Below, in pieces: positions 6,001-15,000 of a stretch of 64,000 nucleotides of DNA. Location: NCBI GenBank assembly GCA_963514005.1, contig OY740785.1:73160001-73224000 (forward strand), written 5' to 3'. Position 1 is the stretch's first letter. Every line of letters begins with the position of its first letter. The position numbers were made by a program. The DNA is from Raja brachyura. Lineage: Eukaryota.

Positions 6001-9000
6001 TAGTGTAACGGTTCATGTGGCAATATTGGAGAAGTGAAAATCTGCCTTGGTTAGATCTGCCTTCAGTATCTTTAATATTAAGCCGTGTTTCTTTTTAATG
6101 CTACCTCTAACGTTTTTTAAAATGAACTTTTACCACCACTGCTATATTTCCTCCCCTACATGACCCTAGTAAAAGTAGTGCTGGTACAACCTAGTGTGTC
6201 TTGCCATGGCCAAAATTATAATCTGTGACTGATGCAAGTGATCCAGTTTTTTTTATTAAACAAATACAAGTTTCCCCTCCTGTGGTGGGAGGAAAGAATG
6301 TTCATATTTTTGCTACCATGATAGACAAAGCAGCTTCAGGACACAGATGCATAGAGTATCTGTCTGCCATCACTTAACCTGCATATTGATTTTAAGCAAT
6401 TTGCAAAACCTTAGGATATATTTAAGTGAATGTTCTCCACAATCTTTTTTTTGTTTAAAAGCACTTTCACATAATGGTTGGAGTAGTCTGCTCATTAGGT
6501 CTTATCTATAGACTGGTGAGTGGCTAATTTTGACTCTTTTTTTTTCTTCCAAATAACTTTTTATTTTCTTCCACCCCCCCCCCCCCAAAAAAAAACGTAT
6601 TTTCCTGGGCCTCCCTATATAGTATGCCATTTGTATTGATTCAACTGCTATTTGGGTTGGGAGAAAAAGTGGTTAATCTTCATCTATACTCCCATAATCT
6701 TGTTCATGAGTTGTAGGAACAGAATTACACCATTTAGCCCATCATGTCCACTCTGCCATTCAATCATGGTTGACTTCTTTCCCCTTCAACCCCATTCTCT
6801 TGCTTTCTCCCCATAACCCAAGACACCTTGATAATCAAATACTCACCCAATTTTTAATCTTTAATTATGCTATTTGCAGTGTATTTTTGTTTCTTAAACT
6901 CCGTGCCTGTTTATAAATGCAAGATGAAAACAAGCAGCAGTTTTAAAAACATCTATTTTAATCCATCCATTTCACTCCATGAAGCTCTTCATCTTCTAAC
7001 ATTTTCCATTTATTTTACTTTGTTTCCTTATTGATTTTAATGATTTAAACATGGGTATTGTCCCAGAAGCTTCTATTTTATTGATTTGTTTTGTCATTAA
7101 TTTGATACATCAAATCTTGACTTGGTTTTATCTTTAAATACAGTCAAAAACCTTTCTGAGGTATTTTGTTGCCTGATCTTCCAACATAAATTAATTGTGA
7201 CCCTAGAGGGAAAAAAAATAATCACTGAAGCTTTGATCAAAGCTATAAGATTTGAGTCCAATTATCAACCATTCTATTCTTGCAGTTGCATACTTTATGT
7301 ACACAGTGATTAATTGTTTTTGCATTGCAGCCCACTAGCAGTATTCTTTGAAAGAATTTGATATTTGTATTGCAGGGACATCAGATTATCTTAGATTGTT
7401 TTTTTTTGTTTGGTCTAAAGTCAAATGTTTTGGGGGAAACTGGGCGATGTTAAAGGTTGGCCTAATGACAAGGATAAAATCATCCAAACCTACCACCTCT
7501 TTGTGCTGACACAGCTTCCCTTTAAAAGGGTCAGGAATTTAAAATTAGCCATTTACAAAAGACCCGTATTTGAACACTTATAATTAATGAACATGTGCAA
7601 TTAAAATCTCTTTTAGAATGCAATGTTCCAATAGTATGTTCTTTTTGCCCATTGCTCCTCTCCCAGTCTGCACTGTGACTTGCCCAATAGCAGATTGAAC
7701 GTTTGCAATGGATTAAATGCTGATGGGAGCGAGAAGTGGGTTTTTCCATTTGAGTAGCTGGGGAATCATTCCTAAGGGGCCATTTGGAGACCGAGTACCT
7801 GACATTTATTTTTGTGATGGTAAAATCGGCTTGCCACTTGGTGACAGATGAAACATTCAACTTTAAGAATGCATTCACACCCCAAACTGGGTGGCAACAA
7901 GTGTCCATCCTCTCACGAGAAGTAAAAGTGCAGTAGGTTGTCTTTCACTTCGAACTACAGTTTGGCTAACATAAATACAAAGTGGGGGGGGGGTTGGGGA
8001 AGCTAAATCATGGCAGCTCTGTTTGTGGATTGTGTCGCTTTGGTTCAAACATTTCATCCTGGACCAGCAACCTTGTTAGACTCAAAGCTGGAGTAACTCA
8101 GCAGGACAGACAGCATCTCTGGAGAGAAGGAATGGGTGACTCAACTTGAAACATCACCATTCCTTCTCTCCAGGGATGCTGCCTGTCCCGCTGAGTTACT
8201 CCAGCTTTTTGTGGCTTAGGTTTACACCAGCATCTGCAGTTCCTTCCATCCATCTACCTTGTTTATCTGCATCCAGCTGAATCGTACATTCTGCTCTAGA
8301 TTTACAGTGAGGTCTATCCTCCTGCACGAAATATGACCCTCCGCACCCCGTAGTGAACCAGCTTGAGCAAGTGAACTGCTGTCCAGGCACAACCATGTCA
8401 GCCTTTGGAAGGAGCTGAAGCCTTTCGGTTAGAGCTGACAAAGTGTTTTAATCAGACATTGGAAGCATTTAAAATGTAATTTGGGAAATTAAAAATAAGT
8501 TCAAATTAAATGAACACTTTTAAAATCTGAATTTGGAAGCATATAAAATATATTTTTGGGAAATACAAATTAAATATGGGAAAATAACATTGGTTCGGCA
8601 TGAAAAACTGACTGAAACTCGAATCAAGGATTAGATTAATTACATTTTATAATCCACTGACATATCTCCAATGATGTATAATTAGCTGATTATTCCATTC
8701 TCTTTTAATTTTTTTGGTTTCTTTTCTTTCCCTATTTTCTATCTACATAAAATTTAGAAATATAGAAGTACAATTATTATACAATTGATAATACAAACAA
8801 TATTAATAATGTATGACTACAAAAAACAAAATGTTTTTTATTATGTATTTACTTCTAATAAAAAATTTAAAAAAAAAATAAATATGGGAAAATAACATCC
8901 TTGATTTGATTCTGAATCATTTGAAATGTAATTTGAGAAAAGTAAATACTAAAATATGAAGAATATAACTTGCTCTTTCAAGCAGATTTTGGAAGCATTT

Positions 9001-12000: not shown

Positions 12001-15000
12001 ATTTATGCCTTCACGTGTGAAAAGCACCTGGTGTTTTAGCTGATTAATTGTGTTATCGTTCAGGTAATGCTGTCGACACCAATCCTCCATGTTGCTCATC
12101 AGCCTACGAGAGTTAGCACAGGAAGCTAAAGTACTGCAAGTTTATGCTGAAATAAACTCTTTTCCAGATATATGCAAAGTAAATAAATGTTTACTTTCTT
12201 TCACAGGGCTGGTATTCACTGGAATTTAGAAGGATGAGGGTATCTTATAGAAACATAAAATTGAGGGATTGGACACGCTAGGAGCCAGAAACATGTTCTT
12301 GCATCTAGCGTGTCCAAACCCTCAATAATTTTTTGCGGGGATTCCAGAACCTGGGAGCACAGTTTAAGAATAAGGGGTAGGCCATTTAGAACTCAGACGA
12401 TGAAAATTTTTTTCACCCAGTGTGTTGTGAATTTGTGGAATGCTCTGTCTCAGAAGGCAGTGGAGACCAATTCACTGGATGCATTCAAAAGAGTTGGATA
12501 TAGCTTTTTGGTCTAGCGGAATCAAGGGAGATGGTAGGAGCGGGGTACTGATTGTGGATGATCCGGCATGATCACATTGAATGGCGGTGCTGGCACGAAG
12601 GGGCGAATGACCTTCTCCTACACCTATTTTCTATGTACCTATGTACATTCCATTTTAGCTACGCTGACGGCTCACTCCAACTGCATGTCTGGTTTGTGAC
12701 CTCTGCTCCCTTGAAGACCAAGTGCAGCCAAAATCATAGAAACTACAGTAGACAAAGATTCAGAAGAAATACAGCACAAGGGCACAAACCCTTTTTTGTG
12801 CCCTTTCACCAGCATTGCCATCAAATTATATTGGACACCCAGCTGAGTAAAGGTGAGTAGGAAAGCAAATGGTAGCAGCAGCCAGGTTCAGATCTGAGAA
12901 ATTCTTCTTTCATTATGTAAAATCGTGTTAATGCTTATAGAAATCAATCTGTATGGGAGAGGGTGGGTATGTTTTACTGAAATCGGTCGGGTGATACACT
13001 ATGTGAGATTTCTAACATTGTAACTCTCCATAGTTATTGTAGTCATACAGAACATCAACAGGCCCTTCAGCCCAAATCATTAATGTTGACCAAGTTGCCC
13101 CACCTAAGCTCATCCCATTTGCCAGCCTTTGGTCCATATCCCTCAAAGCCGTTCCTATTCACATAATCTGCCAAGTGTCTCTTAAATATTGTTATTGTAC
13201 CTACCTGGCAGTTAATTCCATATACCCACCATGTGAATTAGAGTGAAGGTTATTACTGTAACCAGTCTGTTCAGAATGTGGCAGGAATGGAATAGGAAGG
13301 AAATAAGAGTGACAACTGCAATATTTAGAGTCATTAAATCATTGTGTCATATGGCTCTTTAACCCATTCATGCCACCCATCCACGCCACCTAAGCGAGGC
13401 ACCATTTGCCCACATTTCACCCATATCCCTCTAAACCTGATTAAATATTTTTTTCAATGTTATTCTACTTGCCTCAACCACATCTGACAAGTCATTCCAC
13501 CCTCTGCATGGAAAACGTACCCCTTGGGCTCCTGTTAAATCTTTCCCCTCTCGCGTTAAACCCATGCCCTCTAGTTCTTGATTCCCATACTTTGGGGGGG
13601 AAAGACTGCATTCATTCATCTAATCTACCCCTCTTGTGATTGATGGGAGATCTTATAGAGGTGTATACAGTCTCTGACGCTCCAACTTCTCTGTTTCACT
13701 CAGTCCTTCTAGCCCTAGCAACTTAGCCTGACGACAGAGACTTTTCTTGTCTGAAGAAGGAACCCAAACGTCGCCTGTCCATTCCCTCCAGAGATGCTGC
13801 CTGACCCGCTGAGTTACTCCAGCACTTTGTAGTTTGCTCCTCATAAATCTTTTCTGCATCTTTCTAGGCCAATGGCATCCAACATCTTGCTCAGGGCACA
13901 CAGCTGGAGAAGGGAAGTGGAAGCTCTTTGTTCTCCAGAAGATTCATTGCTAATGCCCCTGATTCCTTTCCACACATCTCAACAAACCATCTACTTGTCT
14001 CCCAGCAAACCGCTCTCTTTAGCCCATGAAGCCGGGTTAAGCAGTGCACCCCTTAAGGGCCTGTCCTACCAGCATGCAACTCTATGCGATGAGCACGACC
14101 TAAAGTGGTCGCTTGAGCCGTCCAGCGTCACGGGGCCAGTCCCACTTCGATCGCTGGAGCCGTGCGGAGTTCGTCCCGACATCGCGCGGGGCTCCGAAAA
14201 ACTGACTGTTCAAAAATTCCGCGCGGCAACGGCTTGTCGGCTCGACGCATGACACCGCCTTGACATTGTGCATCCGTGAACCTATCTGTAGGTGCCTCCG
14301 TGACCCGCTATGTGTGTAGCTCCGTGGCCCTCTGTGTGTGTGCCTCTGTGCCCCTCTCTGTCCTGGCGAACTTACCTTAAGAATTCGCTCCATGTTCGCC
14401 TCACTTTGCGCTGTGTTGCGCCACTCACCCGACCTCCGCGTGGCCCTCGCTGCTGGTTTAGAAACATAGAAATTAGGTGCAGGAGTAGGCCATTCAGCCC
14501 TTCGAGCCTGCACCACCATTCAATATGATCATGGCTGATCATCCAACTCAGTATCCCGTACCTCCCTTCTCTCCATAGCCTCTGATCCCCTTAGCCACAT
14601 CTAACTCCCTCTTAATTATAGCCAATGAACTGGCCTCAACTACCCTCTGTGGCAACCCTCTGTTTGGTCGCGCTTGCCGCATGCAGGCGCATGCTGGTGG
14701 GAACGGCCCTGTACAGGGGCCACCCGACCCCCGCGCGGTCCCCGCTTCTAGTTTGATCGCGTTCATCGCATGGAATCCGATGCTGGTAGGACAGGCCCTT
14801 TACCCTGTTCAGAGATAACACGGATATCTACCCGAAATGAACGACTATATGCAAACTGACGGAAGGCTTTGTCCCTTTATAAGTGGGCTCCTAAATATCG
14901 AATGCAGTGGGTGTCTGTAAAATTGAGTTGTCACGAGAGCCGCCAAAGCACTCTGGCTGACGACGTCCAAGTCGCTGCTGCAACTTACTGTGATCGCAGG

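What the first reader, a model, noticed from the sequence alone, without database searches (positions are those of the whole stretch)
8258..12103. Hidden minus-strand gene between ZPAX and TTC32 encoding a SAM-like domain fused to a ZZ zinc finger
Seen: exon 11891-12103 encodes a 55-60 aa SAM-like helical pattern (W...L....I..L.........SLT..DI..MNI..GQK..L..LL). Exon 9339-9475, too short to appear in the ORF track, encodes a ZZ finger with all six Cys and two His (CDGC...CNQC...CSTC...H..H). Both exons have canonical splice sites and join in frame (AA|G = Lys). Knowledge: the peptide closely resembles the HERC2/MIB ZZ domain, and ZZ domains of p62 and HERC2 bind free N-termini. The first and last acidic residues of that pocket are kept; the middle one is Asn as in MIB1. 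Inference: a polymerising SAM plus an N-terminus-reading ZZ would parallel the PB1-ZZ design of p62/SQSTM1. I do not recognise this architecture as a named vertebrate gene at this locus.
Basis: partly seen in the sequence, partly recalled or inferred. Interest (0 to 1): 0.82.

Follow-up and report, generated by a model that had tools for sequence, protein, structure and literature searches.

The report
Elasmobranch SAM-like ZZ-finger gene beside TTC32
The two exons are real and belong to a small shark-and-ray protein that joins a SAM-shaped helical domain to a HERC2-like ZZ zinc finger; public pipelines already predict it under misleading names, but nobody appears to have studied it.

Summary
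Both exons exist as described on the minus strand. Exon 9475-9339 is a bona fide ZZ finger (Pfam PF00569, E 1.3e-11; closest solved relative is the HERC2 ZZ). Exon 12103-11891 has no significant SAM sequence match. It does fold confidently (pLDDT 87.8) into a five-helix bundle whose nearest solved structures are SAM domains.

- A 60-nt exon (9877-9818) lies between the two exons and is present in all five annotated relatives.
- The last coding exon is 7202-7144. The stretch ending at 8258 is not supported.

The unit is not unannotated. NCBI models in thorny skate, horn shark and bamboo shark call it "TTC32 isoform X1/X2", and in Atlantic stingray "protein ref(2)P-like". It lies about 6 kb downstream of TTC32's last coding exon on the same strand. 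In skates TTC32 exon 1 splices to it in frame.

An open frame and intact zinc ligands across sharks and rays rule out a decaying HERC2/MIB fragment.

The function is inferred, not shown: a small non-catalytic adaptor, with SAM-fold self-association plus ZZ reading of a free N-terminus. The two-module layout resembles p62. Family membership fails.

The parts
11891..12103 (-). Exon B: SAM-fold domain exon. Candidate start codons are at 12099 and 12090. The stingray and shark orthologues start at the Met matching 12090.
   Evidence: Sequence and splice sites read; translation. Identity to A. radiata TTC32 X1/X2 is 97%. Identity to stingray and shark orthologues is 58-70%. AF2 pLDDT is 87.8 with five helices. 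Nearest solved folds are SAM domains. No Pfam SAM hit.
9818..9877 (-). It is one codon shorter than in all five annotated relatives.
   Evidence: tblastn of P0001-P0005. AG at 9879-9878 and GTAAGT from 9817 read. Low model confidence in the orthologue fold.
9339..9475 (-). Exon D: ZZ-type zinc finger.
   Evidence: Pfam PF00569, E 1.3e-11. PDB: HERC2 ZZ 6ww3 E 8.2e-13, MIB1 4xi6 E 7.8e-8, p62 E 3e-7. Identity over 46 aa is 100% to A. radiata and 80-83% to stingray and sharks.
7144..7202 (-). Exon E (coding part): a short C-terminal tail ending in TGA at 7146-7144. AATAAA motifs lie downstream.
   Evidence: tblastn of P0002 residues 178-194, 94% identity. Sequence with polypyrimidine tract and AG at 7204-7203 read.
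23809..23927 (-). TTC32 coding exon 1. Its donor (GT at 23808-23807) leaves a split Val codon, which is completed by the first base of either TTC32 exon 2 or exon B.
   Evidence: tblastn of P0001, P0002 and P0006; sequence.
21438..21604 (-). TTC32 canonical coding exon 2 (TPR).
   Evidence: tblastn of P0006 residues 41-96, 96% identity; boundaries read.
18189..18310 (-). TTC32 canonical coding exon 3, with stop at 18191-18189. The SAM-ZZ exons start about 6 kb further downstream.
   Evidence: tblastn of P0006 residues 95-135; boundaries read. 119+167+122 nt = 135 codons plus stop, which matches P0006.
8258..8441 (-). The stretch that sets the finding's lower bound. It is not part of the gene by any evidence obtained.
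   Evidence: ORF 8196-8441 has 0 Pfam families at E<=10. No tblastn match from P0001-P0006. Its 3' end runs into a repeat found elsewhere in the window.
14001..15500 (.). CpG-rich stretch between TTC32's 3' end and exon B. It is a possible separate promoter, but it contains repeat fragments.
   Evidence: GC 0.43-0.58 and CpG o/e 0.79-1.02 in three 500-nt bins. 14459-14654 matches repeats at four or more other places in the window.

Best explanation
The finding is a real, selectively maintained coding unit of cartilaginous fishes (at least sharks and rays).

Shown:
- It has four coding exons on the minus strand: 12103/12090-11891, 9877-9818, 9475-9339 and 7202-7144.
- Counted from the Met at 12090 these sum to 456 nt, giving 151 residues plus stop.
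- The protein has an N-terminal five-helix SAM-fold domain, a 20-residue linker exon, a HERC2-like ZZ zinc finger and a short tail. It has no catalytic domain.
- It lies about 6 kb downstream of TTC32's last coding exon on the same strand. In skates it can be reached in frame from TTC32 exon 1, which is why NCBI lists it as TTC32 isoforms.

Inferred mechanism:
- The ZZ finger uses its Asp...Asn-x-Asp pocket to hold a free protein N-terminus or an N-terminal tail, as the HERC2, p62 and MIB ZZ fingers do.
- The SAM-fold domain self-associates or docks onto another SAM protein.
- The protein would therefore act as a small adaptor or clustering factor, or as a competitor, for N-terminus-marked proteins. 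The two-module layout recalls p62 (PB1-ZZ).

My confidence is about 0.9 for gene reality and conservation, about 0.75 for the fold assignment, and about 0.3 for the mechanism.
For: Exons and splice sites were read directly.

ZZ finger:
- Pfam E 1.3e-11, above the cut-off.
- HERC2 ZZ is the best of 39 PDB sequences at E<=1.

Orthologues:
- Proteins with the same four-part layout exist in A. radiata (P0002), H. sabinus (P0003), H. francisci (P0004) and C. plagiosum (P0005). They score E 1e-62 to 1e-136 and 66-100% identity to P0002 (alignment).
- All keep the six Cys, the His pair and the CDNFDYC stretch.
- Every part of these proteins maps to the four window exons.
- ZZ was the only Pfam family above its cut-off in 4 of 4.

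SAM fold:
- The AF2 model of the window exon with a 7-row alignment has pLDDT 87.8 and pTM 0.71.
- The Foldseek top hit is the ASK3 SAM domain 6v0m, with TM 0.74/0.75 and rmsd 1.5 A. EphB2 SAM reaches TM 0.78.
- 21 of the 41 listed rows are SAM-domain entries.
- With the whole-orthologue model, 9 of the top 10 rows are SAM domains.

Pocket:
- D2709, D2728 and D2730 form the HERC2 N-terminus pocket, and D2709A or D2730A abolishes binding (PMC9001736, passages).
- The window has Asp, Asn and Asp at these positions. MIB1 also has Asn at the middle one.
- The same paper lists MIB1/2 among the H3-tail-reading ZZ proteins.
Against: No sequence method places exon B in SAM:
- Pfam finds nothing at E<=10 for the window exon.
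- Only 1 of the 4 orthologues P0002-P0005 has a SAM_2 hit, at E 0.19 and 12.4 bits against a cut-off of 20.5.
- Profile searches of the PDB give ASK3 SAM at E 0.25 and 0.63, which is not significant.
- All Foldseek E-values are >=0.41, and 0 of 181 matches reach E<=0.001.
- The other 20 of the 41 listed rows are helix-hairpin-helix domains (RAD51-family N-termini, NusA AR2, RNA polymerase alpha CTD).
- Atlas SAM clusters score only 0.84-0.85, below the 0.9 lead threshold.

Other weaknesses:
- The ZZ half of the orthologue model failed, with pLDDT below 50 for residues 90-161, so no pocket geometry was obtained.
- The middle pocket acid is Asn.
- No expression, binding or oligomerisation data were available.
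- The protein may exist in skates mainly as a TTC32-exon-1 fusion.
Confidence: 0.55

Rival explanations
1. These are not a gene of their own. They are an alternative 3' exon set of TTC32. Transcripts start at the TTC32 promoter, skip TTC32 exons 2-3 and read on into exons B-E. The skate product is then a 195-200-residue chimera of the first 40 TTC32 residues with the SAM-fold and ZZ modules.
For: - NCBI groups the models under TTC32 in 3 of 4 species.
- A. radiata X1 and X2 begin with TTC32 exon 1.
- In the window the exon 1 donor and the exon B acceptor share the same split-codon phase as exon 1 and canonical exon 2. The sum 119+213+60+137+59 = 588 nt is divisible by 3.
Against: - The two shark 'TTC32 isoform X1' proteins and the stingray protein start at the Met inside exon B and carry no TTC32 residues.
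- The stingray model is a separate gene with another name.
- 40 residues are less than one and a half TPR helices. Pfam finds no TPR in P0002 at E<=1.
- A CpG-rich stretch lies between TTC32 and exon B.

This reading and the best explanation differ only in the promoter used, not in the protein modules.
Confidence: 0.35
2. It is an independent gene with its own promoter, possibly the CpG-rich stretch at 14.0-15.5 kb. The TTC32-linked models would then be read-through or pipeline-merging artefacts.
For: - H. sabinus is annotated as a separate gene.
- 3 of 4 non-window species have a stand-alone ORF of 154-161 aa starting in exon B.
- Three 500-nt bins at 14001-15500 have CpG o/e of 0.79-1.02. 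The only other bins in the scanned 6-26 kb with CpG o/e of 0.6 or more lie around TTC32 exon 1 (23001-24000 and 24501-25000).
Against: - The CpG-rich stretch contains repeat fragments (14459-14654 and an internal inverted pair), so it may be a young transposon rather than a promoter.
- No transcript data are available.
- The in-frame exon 1 to B junction is kept in two skates.
Confidence: 0.4
3. It is a neutrally decaying duplicated fragment of HERC2 or MIB, or a chance ORF, with no function.
For: - The ZZ exon is most similar to the HERC2 ZZ, with 25 of 45 residues identical in the alignment.
- The C-terminal tail differs in length even between the window and A. radiata.
Against: - The frame is open, all splice sites are canonical and all zinc ligands are kept in the window and in four other species spanning rays and sharks.
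- The ZZ exon is 80-83% identical between the window and stingray or sharks.
- No Mib/HERC2, HECT or RING domain remnants appear in the Pfam scans.
Confidence: 0.03

Closest known systems
p62/SQSTM1 (Drosophila ref(2)P) and NBR1: PB1-ZZ autophagy receptors
   Same: Both have an N-terminal protein-protein or self-association module directly followed by a ZZ finger of the N-terminus-binding type. NCBI names the stingray orthologue 'protein ref(2)P-like'. The p62 ZZ matches the window ZZ at E 3e-7.
   Different: - The N-terminal module has a SAM-type helical fold, not a PB1 beta-grasp.
- No PB1 or UBA family appears in any Pfam scan.
- It has about 151-161 residues; my recollection is about 440 for p62.
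- The middle pocket residue is Asn instead of Asp.
HERC2 ZZ domain (PDB 6ww3, 6ww4)
   Same: It is the best sequence match among solved structures, at E 8.2e-13 with 25 of 45 residues identical. It has the same Cys/His ligand spacing, apart from one extra residue in HERC2. The first and third pocket Asp are kept.
   Different: HERC2 is a very large HECT ligase (528 kDa per the abstract of PMC11577452 in the listing). The protein here is a stand-alone small protein with no HECT, RLD or M-H domain. D2728 is replaced by Asn.
MIB1 ZZ domain (PDB 4xi6)
   Same: It shares Asn at the middle pocket position and the PIIG stretch. It scores E 7.8e-8 with 21 of 45 residues identical.
   Different: No MIB/HERC2 domains, ankyrin repeats or RING fingers are present.
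ASK3/MAP3K15 C-terminal SAM domain (PDB 6v0m)
   Same: It is the closest solved fold to exon B, with TM 0.74/0.75 and rmsd 1.5 A over 58 columns. It is also the only SAM domain to surface in the sequence-profile searches.
   Different: The sequence similarity is not significant (E 0.25 and 0.63) and identity is 19%. There is no kinase context.
TTC32 (TPR protein)
   Same: It shares the locus and strand, and in the skate models the first coding exon.
   Different: No TPR domain is present in the SAM-ZZ proteins. The canonical 135-residue TTC32 uses exons at 21604-21438 and 18310-18189, which the SAM-ZZ form skips.

Membership tests
ZZ-type zinc finger (Pfam PF00569) | Profile score above the curated cut-off | tested here: met
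   44.6 bits against 21.4, E 1.3e-11 for the window exon. 42.8-44.0 bits in 4 of 4 orthologues.
ZZ-type zinc finger (Pfam PF00569) | Two zinc sites formed by C-x2-C, C-x2-C, C-x2-C and a His pair | tested here: met
   Cys at exon residues 1, 4, 16, 19, 25 and 28, and His at 34 and 37 (also 30). These align with the HERC2, MIB1 and p62 ligands and are invariant in P0002-P0005.
N-terminus-reading ZZ subgroup (HERC2, p62, MIB type) | Acidic pocket of three Asp (HERC2 D2709, D2728, D2730) | tested here: inconclusive
   2 of 3 are kept: Asp, Asn, Asp. The two residues whose Ala mutants abolish binding in HERC2 are the ones kept (PMC9001736 passages). Asn at the middle position also occurs in MIB1. 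Pocket geometry could not be modelled, because pLDDT was below 50.
SAM domain (Pfam SAM_1 PF00536 / SAM_2 PF07647) | Profile score above the curated cut-off | tested here: not met
   No SAM family at E<=10 for the window exon. The best among P0002-P0005 is SAM_2 at 12.4 bits against 20.5 in P0004 only. The distant relative P0008 scores SAM_1 18.1 against 23.
SAM domain (Pfam SAM_1 PF00536 / SAM_2 PF07647) | Compact five-helix bundle with a long C-terminal helix | tested here: met
   The AF2 model has helices at 2-7, 12-20, 26-30, 34-38 and 44-65, with pLDDT 87.8. TM is 0.70-0.78 to the ASK3, EphB2, BICC1 and ANKS3 SAM domains. 21 of the 41 listed rows are SAM, but all E-values are >=0.41 and the other 20 rows are HhH domains.
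SAM domain (polymerising subgroup) | Head-to-tail mid-loop/end-helix self-association | not testable with these tools
   No multimer prediction or experimental data were available.
p62/SQSTM1/ref(2)P | PB1 domain at the N-terminus and UBA domain at the C-terminus (features recalled, not from a call) | tested here: not met
   No PB1 or UBA family at E<=1 in P0002-P0005, nor at E<=10 in the window exons.
TTC32 | TPR repeats | tested here: not met
   P0002, which includes TTC32 exon 1, has no TPR family at E<=1. Canonical P0006 carries six precomputed TPR-type Pfam families.
HERC2 / MIB E3 ligases | Catalytic HECT or RING domain plus MIB/HERC2 domain (features recalled) | tested here: not met
   ZZ is the only family above its cut-off in P0002-P0005. 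All residues of these proteins are accounted for by the four short exons.

The most novel reading that the evidence does not exclude
An ancient cartilaginous-fish protein that is a SAM-polymer analogue of p62. The SAM-fold domain would build head-to-tail filaments that display many ZZ pockets, clustering proteins marked by a particular free N-terminus. It would be co-transcribed with TTC32 from one promoter, so that a single locus yields two unrelated proteins by choice of 3' exon set. Its absence from annotated bony-vertebrate proteins would mean either loss elsewhere or an elasmobranch invention.
Probability: 0.15. Interest if true: 0.65.

Novelty: new variant of a known kind. Interest (0 to 1): 0.42.

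Why it matters
ZZ fingers of HERC2, p62 and related proteins read free protein N-termini, and in p62 this reading is coupled to a polymerising PB1 domain. A stand-alone protein of about 150 residues that couples a HERC2-like ZZ to a SAM-type fold would be a second, independently assembled example of an oligomeriser plus N-terminus reader. It would also be a compact natural module for structural work.

The case shows that automatic names hide it: 'TTC32 isoform X1' and 'ref(2)P-like' both mislead. The locus offers a test case for two unrelated proteins sharing a first exon.

If the protein is restricted to cartilaginous fishes, its biological reach is modest.

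Tried and rejected
1. Direct join of exon B to the ZZ exon. It is arithmetically in frame, but 5 of 5 annotated relatives include exon C. It was rejected as the main form.
2. A coding exon ending at 8258. No Pfam family and no orthologue match.
3. SAM by sequence. Pfam and two profile searches of the PDB gave nothing significant.
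4. Wider relatives of exon B.
   - phmmer against 1.84 billion representatives gave 6 proteins at E<=0.001.
   - Two are the known orthologue clusters (P0001, P0004).
   - P0008 (two tandem copies) and P0009 look like true distant relatives.
   - I judge P0007 and P0010 spurious, because they are repetitive proteins matching a 27-32-residue stretch many times.
5. Profile search for longer relatives with alignment A3. The tool set the length range to 481-2000 residues, scored 7999 candidates and found none at E<=0.01.
The two Atlas searches gave only sub-0.9 leads. Their origin stays unknown.
7. Whole-orthologue fold for the ZZ pocket. pLDDT was below 50 for residues 90-161.
8. RNA genes. 0 tRNAs and 0 Rfam families at gathering score.
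9. Decaying HERC2/MIB fragment. Rejected on conservation.

Full report
**Observation**

On the minus strand, 12103-11891 is open for 70 codons. It is preceded by AG (12105-12104) and followed by GTAAGT. The stretch 9475-9339 carries 45 whole codons plus split codons at both ends. It is preceded by AG (9477-9476) and followed by GTATGT.

The second peptide is a ZZ finger beyond any chance level:
- Pfam PF00569 scores E 1.3e-11, 44.6 bits against a cut-off of 21.4.
- Of 39 distinct PDB sequences matched at E<=1, the best are the HERC2 ZZ (6ww3, E 8.2e-13, 25 of 45 residues identical), MIB1 (4xi6, E 7.8e-8, 21 of 45) and p62 (E about 3e-7).
- Six Cys and the H-x2-H pair are present.

The first peptide gets no SAM family from Pfam at E<=10. 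Its only hit is LPD3 at E 0.081, below the cut-off.

**Gene model**

Searching the first exon alone against the large protein collection (lengths 'longer') returned 2 proteins at E<=0.01 among 3 candidates. Both are NCBI models from Amblyraja radiata named 'tetratricopeptide repeat protein 32 isoform X2' (P0001, 167 aa) and 'isoform X1' (P0002, 200 aa), 97% identical to the exon.

Mapping them on the window with tblastn and reading the boundaries gives these exons:

| Exon | Coordinates | Note |
|---|---|---|
| TTC32 coding exon 1 | 23927-23809 | |
| B | 12103-11891 | |
| D (ZZ) | 9475-9339 | |
| E | 7202-7144 | ends in TGA; AATAAA motifs downstream |

All acceptors are AG and all donors GT. 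From the Met at 12090 the coding lengths are 200+60+137+59 = 456 nt, which is 151 codons plus stop. From the TTC32 start they are 119+213+60+137+59 = 588 nt. Both sums are divisible by three.

Each exon was searched by itself. Continuity rests on this arithmetic and on the public orthologue proteins.

However, 5 of 5 annotated relatives include exon C.

The finding's lower bound, 8258, closes an ORF (8196-8441) that has no Pfam family. None of the six proteins tried matches it.

The window's exon C is one codon shorter than in all five relatives. Its tail stops four residues earlier than in A. radiata.

**Orthologues**

A search with P0002 (lengths 'near', 110-350 aa) found 6 proteins at E<=0.001 among 28 candidates. 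Besides P0002 and P0001 these were:
- P0003, 'protein ref(2)P-like [Hypanus sabinus]', 154 aa.
- P0004, 'TTC32 isoform X1 [Heterodontus francisci]', 161 aa.
- P0005, 'TTC32 isoform X1 [Chiloscyllium plagiosum]', 155 aa.
- P0006, canonical 'TTC32 isoform X4 [A. radiata]', 135 aa, with TPR families.

P0003-P0005 start at the Met inside exon B and have the same four-part layout.

Identity of the window exons to P0003, P0004 and P0005:

| Exon | P0003 | P0004 | P0005 |
|---|---|---|---|
| B | 70% | 63% | 58% |
| C | 73% | 68% | 61% |
| D | 80% | 83% | 80% |

All zinc ligands and the CDNFDYC stretch are invariant. An intact frame in two rays and two sharks, plus the window, excludes a decaying HERC2/MIB fragment.

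The gene is therefore already predicted in public annotation, under names that do not describe it.

**Relation to TTC32**

P0006 maps to 23927-23809, 21604-21438 and 18310-18189. The sum 119+167+122 nt gives 135 codons plus stop.

The SAM-ZZ exons therefore lie about 6 kb beyond TTC32's last coding exon, on the same strand. The exon 1 donor leaves 'GT' of a Val codon. Both canonical exon 2 (first base C) and exon B (first base G) complete it.

Whether the unit has its own promoter is open. Points on either side:
- The stingray model is a separate gene, and the shark models carry no TTC32 residues.
- Three 500-nt bins at 14001-15500 are CpG-rich, with o/e 0.79-1.02.
- That stretch also holds repeat fragments.

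**The N-terminal domain**

phmmer of exon B against 1.84 billion representatives gave 6 proteins at E<=0.001:
- The two orthologue clusters (P0001, P0004).
- P0008 (274 aa, two tandem copies) and P0009 (104 aa), which align over the whole domain with W4, L10, L18, D36, G45, Q46, L50, R51 and L54 invariant.
- Two repetitive proteins (P0007, P0010), which I regard as spurious.

P0008 has sub-threshold SAM_1 and SAM_2 hits (E 0.0035 and 0.023). P0004 has SAM_2 at E 0.19. The other orthologues have none.

Fold evidence:
- AlphaFold2 on the window exon with a 7-row alignment gave pLDDT 87.8, pTM 0.71 and five helices.
- Foldseek against the PDB gave 181 matches at E<=10 and none at E<=0.001.
- The top hits are the ASK3 SAM domain (6v0m, TM 0.74/0.75, rmsd 1.5 A), EphB2 SAM (TM 0.78) and BICC1 and ANKS3 SAM.
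- By my count, 21 of the 41 listed rows are SAM-domain entries. The other 20 are helix-hairpin-helix domains: 11 from the RAD51/DMC1 family and 9 from NusA or RNA polymerase complexes.
- The whole-orthologue model (P0004) gave SAM domains in 9 of its top 10 rows.

Weaker evidence:
- Profile searches of PDB sequences put ASK3 SAM at E 0.25 and 0.63, which is not significant.
- Atlas feature searches gave SAM clusters at only 0.84-0.85 and 0.81-0.86.

'SAM-like fold' is therefore supported. Membership of the Pfam SAM families is not.

**The ZZ pocket**

PMC9001736 (passages read) states that the HERC2 ZZ pocket comprises D2709, D2728 and D2730. It also states that D2709A or D2730A abolishes binding of the H3 and Arg-N-terminal peptides.

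Counting along the alignment, these correspond to exon residues 2, 21 and 23, which are Asp, Asn and Asp. MIB1 also has Asn at the middle position. The same paper lists MIB1/2 among the ZZ proteins that read the H3 N-terminus.

The pocket could not be modelled, because the ZZ half of the P0004 model had pLDDT below 50.

**How it most likely works**

Shown: a conserved small protein with a SAM-type helical domain and a HERC2-like ZZ finger, and no catalytic domain.

Inferred:
- The ZZ holds a free N-terminus or N-terminal tail.
- The SAM-fold domain mediates self- or hetero-association.
- The protein therefore acts as an adaptor, clustering factor or competitor for N-terminus-marked proteins, with a two-module layout like p62.

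I put this mechanism at about 0.3. Membership of p62/ref(2)P, TTC32, HERC2 or MIB fails on their defining domains.

**Novelty and limits**

Two full-text searches found nothing on this architecture:
- 'TTC32' with 'ZZ-type': 0 papers.
- 'SAM domain', 'ZZ domain', 'elasmobranch', at least two terms: 1 unrelated paper.

The following stayed unchecked:
- Transcripts.
- Synteny and tBLASTn in chimaera and bony vertebrates, because no eukaryotic genome collection was available.
- dN/dS, because no orthologue DNA was available.
- Proteins longer than 350 aa with this architecture, because one search covered only 481-2000 aa and found none.

Supplements were not needed.

**Surroundings**

- A ZP-N domain ORF lies at 2759-3205 on the plus strand. 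Its identity as ZPAX was not tested.
- An IFT121/WDR35 TPR exon lies at 35920-36273 on the minus strand.
- The virus-like stretch is a DIRS-type retroelement on the minus strand at about 27893-32342. I describe it only. It has three long overlapping ORFs: one gag-like with no Pfam family, one with reverse transcriptase, and one with a tyrosine recombinase.
- A second, fragmented copy and a LINE reverse transcriptase lie further along the window.

Noticed in passing
window 27893-32342, minus strand: A DIRS-type retroelement (the virus-like stretch), described only. It has three long overlapping ORFs of 513, 669 and 353 aa. The 669-aa ORF has Pfam RVT_1 (E 3.6e-20). The 353-aa ORF has phage-integrase-type tyrosine recombinase domains. 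The 513-aa ORF has no family. The ORF listing shows no interruption within these three ORFs. The element's ends and terminal repeats were not examined.
   Followed up: partly
window about 45007-49186, minus strand: A second, decayed copy of the same kind of element. The ORF list shows its coding capacity split among five separate ORFs of 110 aa or more. The three of those five pieces that I scanned gave no Pfam family at E<=0.001. I did not count the breaks.
   Followed up: no
window 60831-62029, plus strand: A LINE-type reverse transcriptase in two adjacent ORFs. The first has RVT_1 at E 7e-25. Its 3' tail sequence recurs at 12200-12645, 14459-14654, 16766-17492, 22650-22990, 40950-41555 and 50740-50860.
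   Followed up: partly
window 14001-15500: A CpG-rich stretch (GC up to 0.58, CpG o/e 0.79-1.02) between the TTC32 3' end and the SAM-fold exon. Within the scanned 6-26 kb, the only other bins with CpG o/e of 0.6 or more lie around TTC32 exon 1. It contains a LINE-tail fragment and an internal 44-nt inverted pair (14055-14098 / 14757-14800). Whether it is a promoter or a young repeat is undecided.
   Followed up: partly
window 7202-7097, minus strand: The last exon is open in two frames. The frame used after the ZZ exon ends at 7144. The frame used when the ZZ exon is skipped (A. radiata isoform X2) stays open for 35 codons to TAA at 7099-7097, with 86% identity to the skate model.
   Followed up: partly
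window 13760-13839 and at least 15 other places (for example 8087-8212, 10501-10565, 11597-11770, 19477-19525, 34267-34425): A short interspersed repeat of about 70 nt, 78-91% identical between copies. It sits in both introns of the SAM-ZZ unit and overlaps the 3' end of the ORF that set the finding's lower bound.
   Followed up: no
window 35920-36273, minus strand: An exon-sized ORF with the Pfam TPR_IFT121 family (E 3.6e-12), that is WDR35/IFT121. In my recollection this is TTC32's neighbour in other vertebrates.
   Followed up: no
window 57875-58348, minus strand: A tandemly repetitive stretch giving three overlapping ORFs rich in Pro/Gln/Thr repeats. It was not analysed.
   Followed up: no
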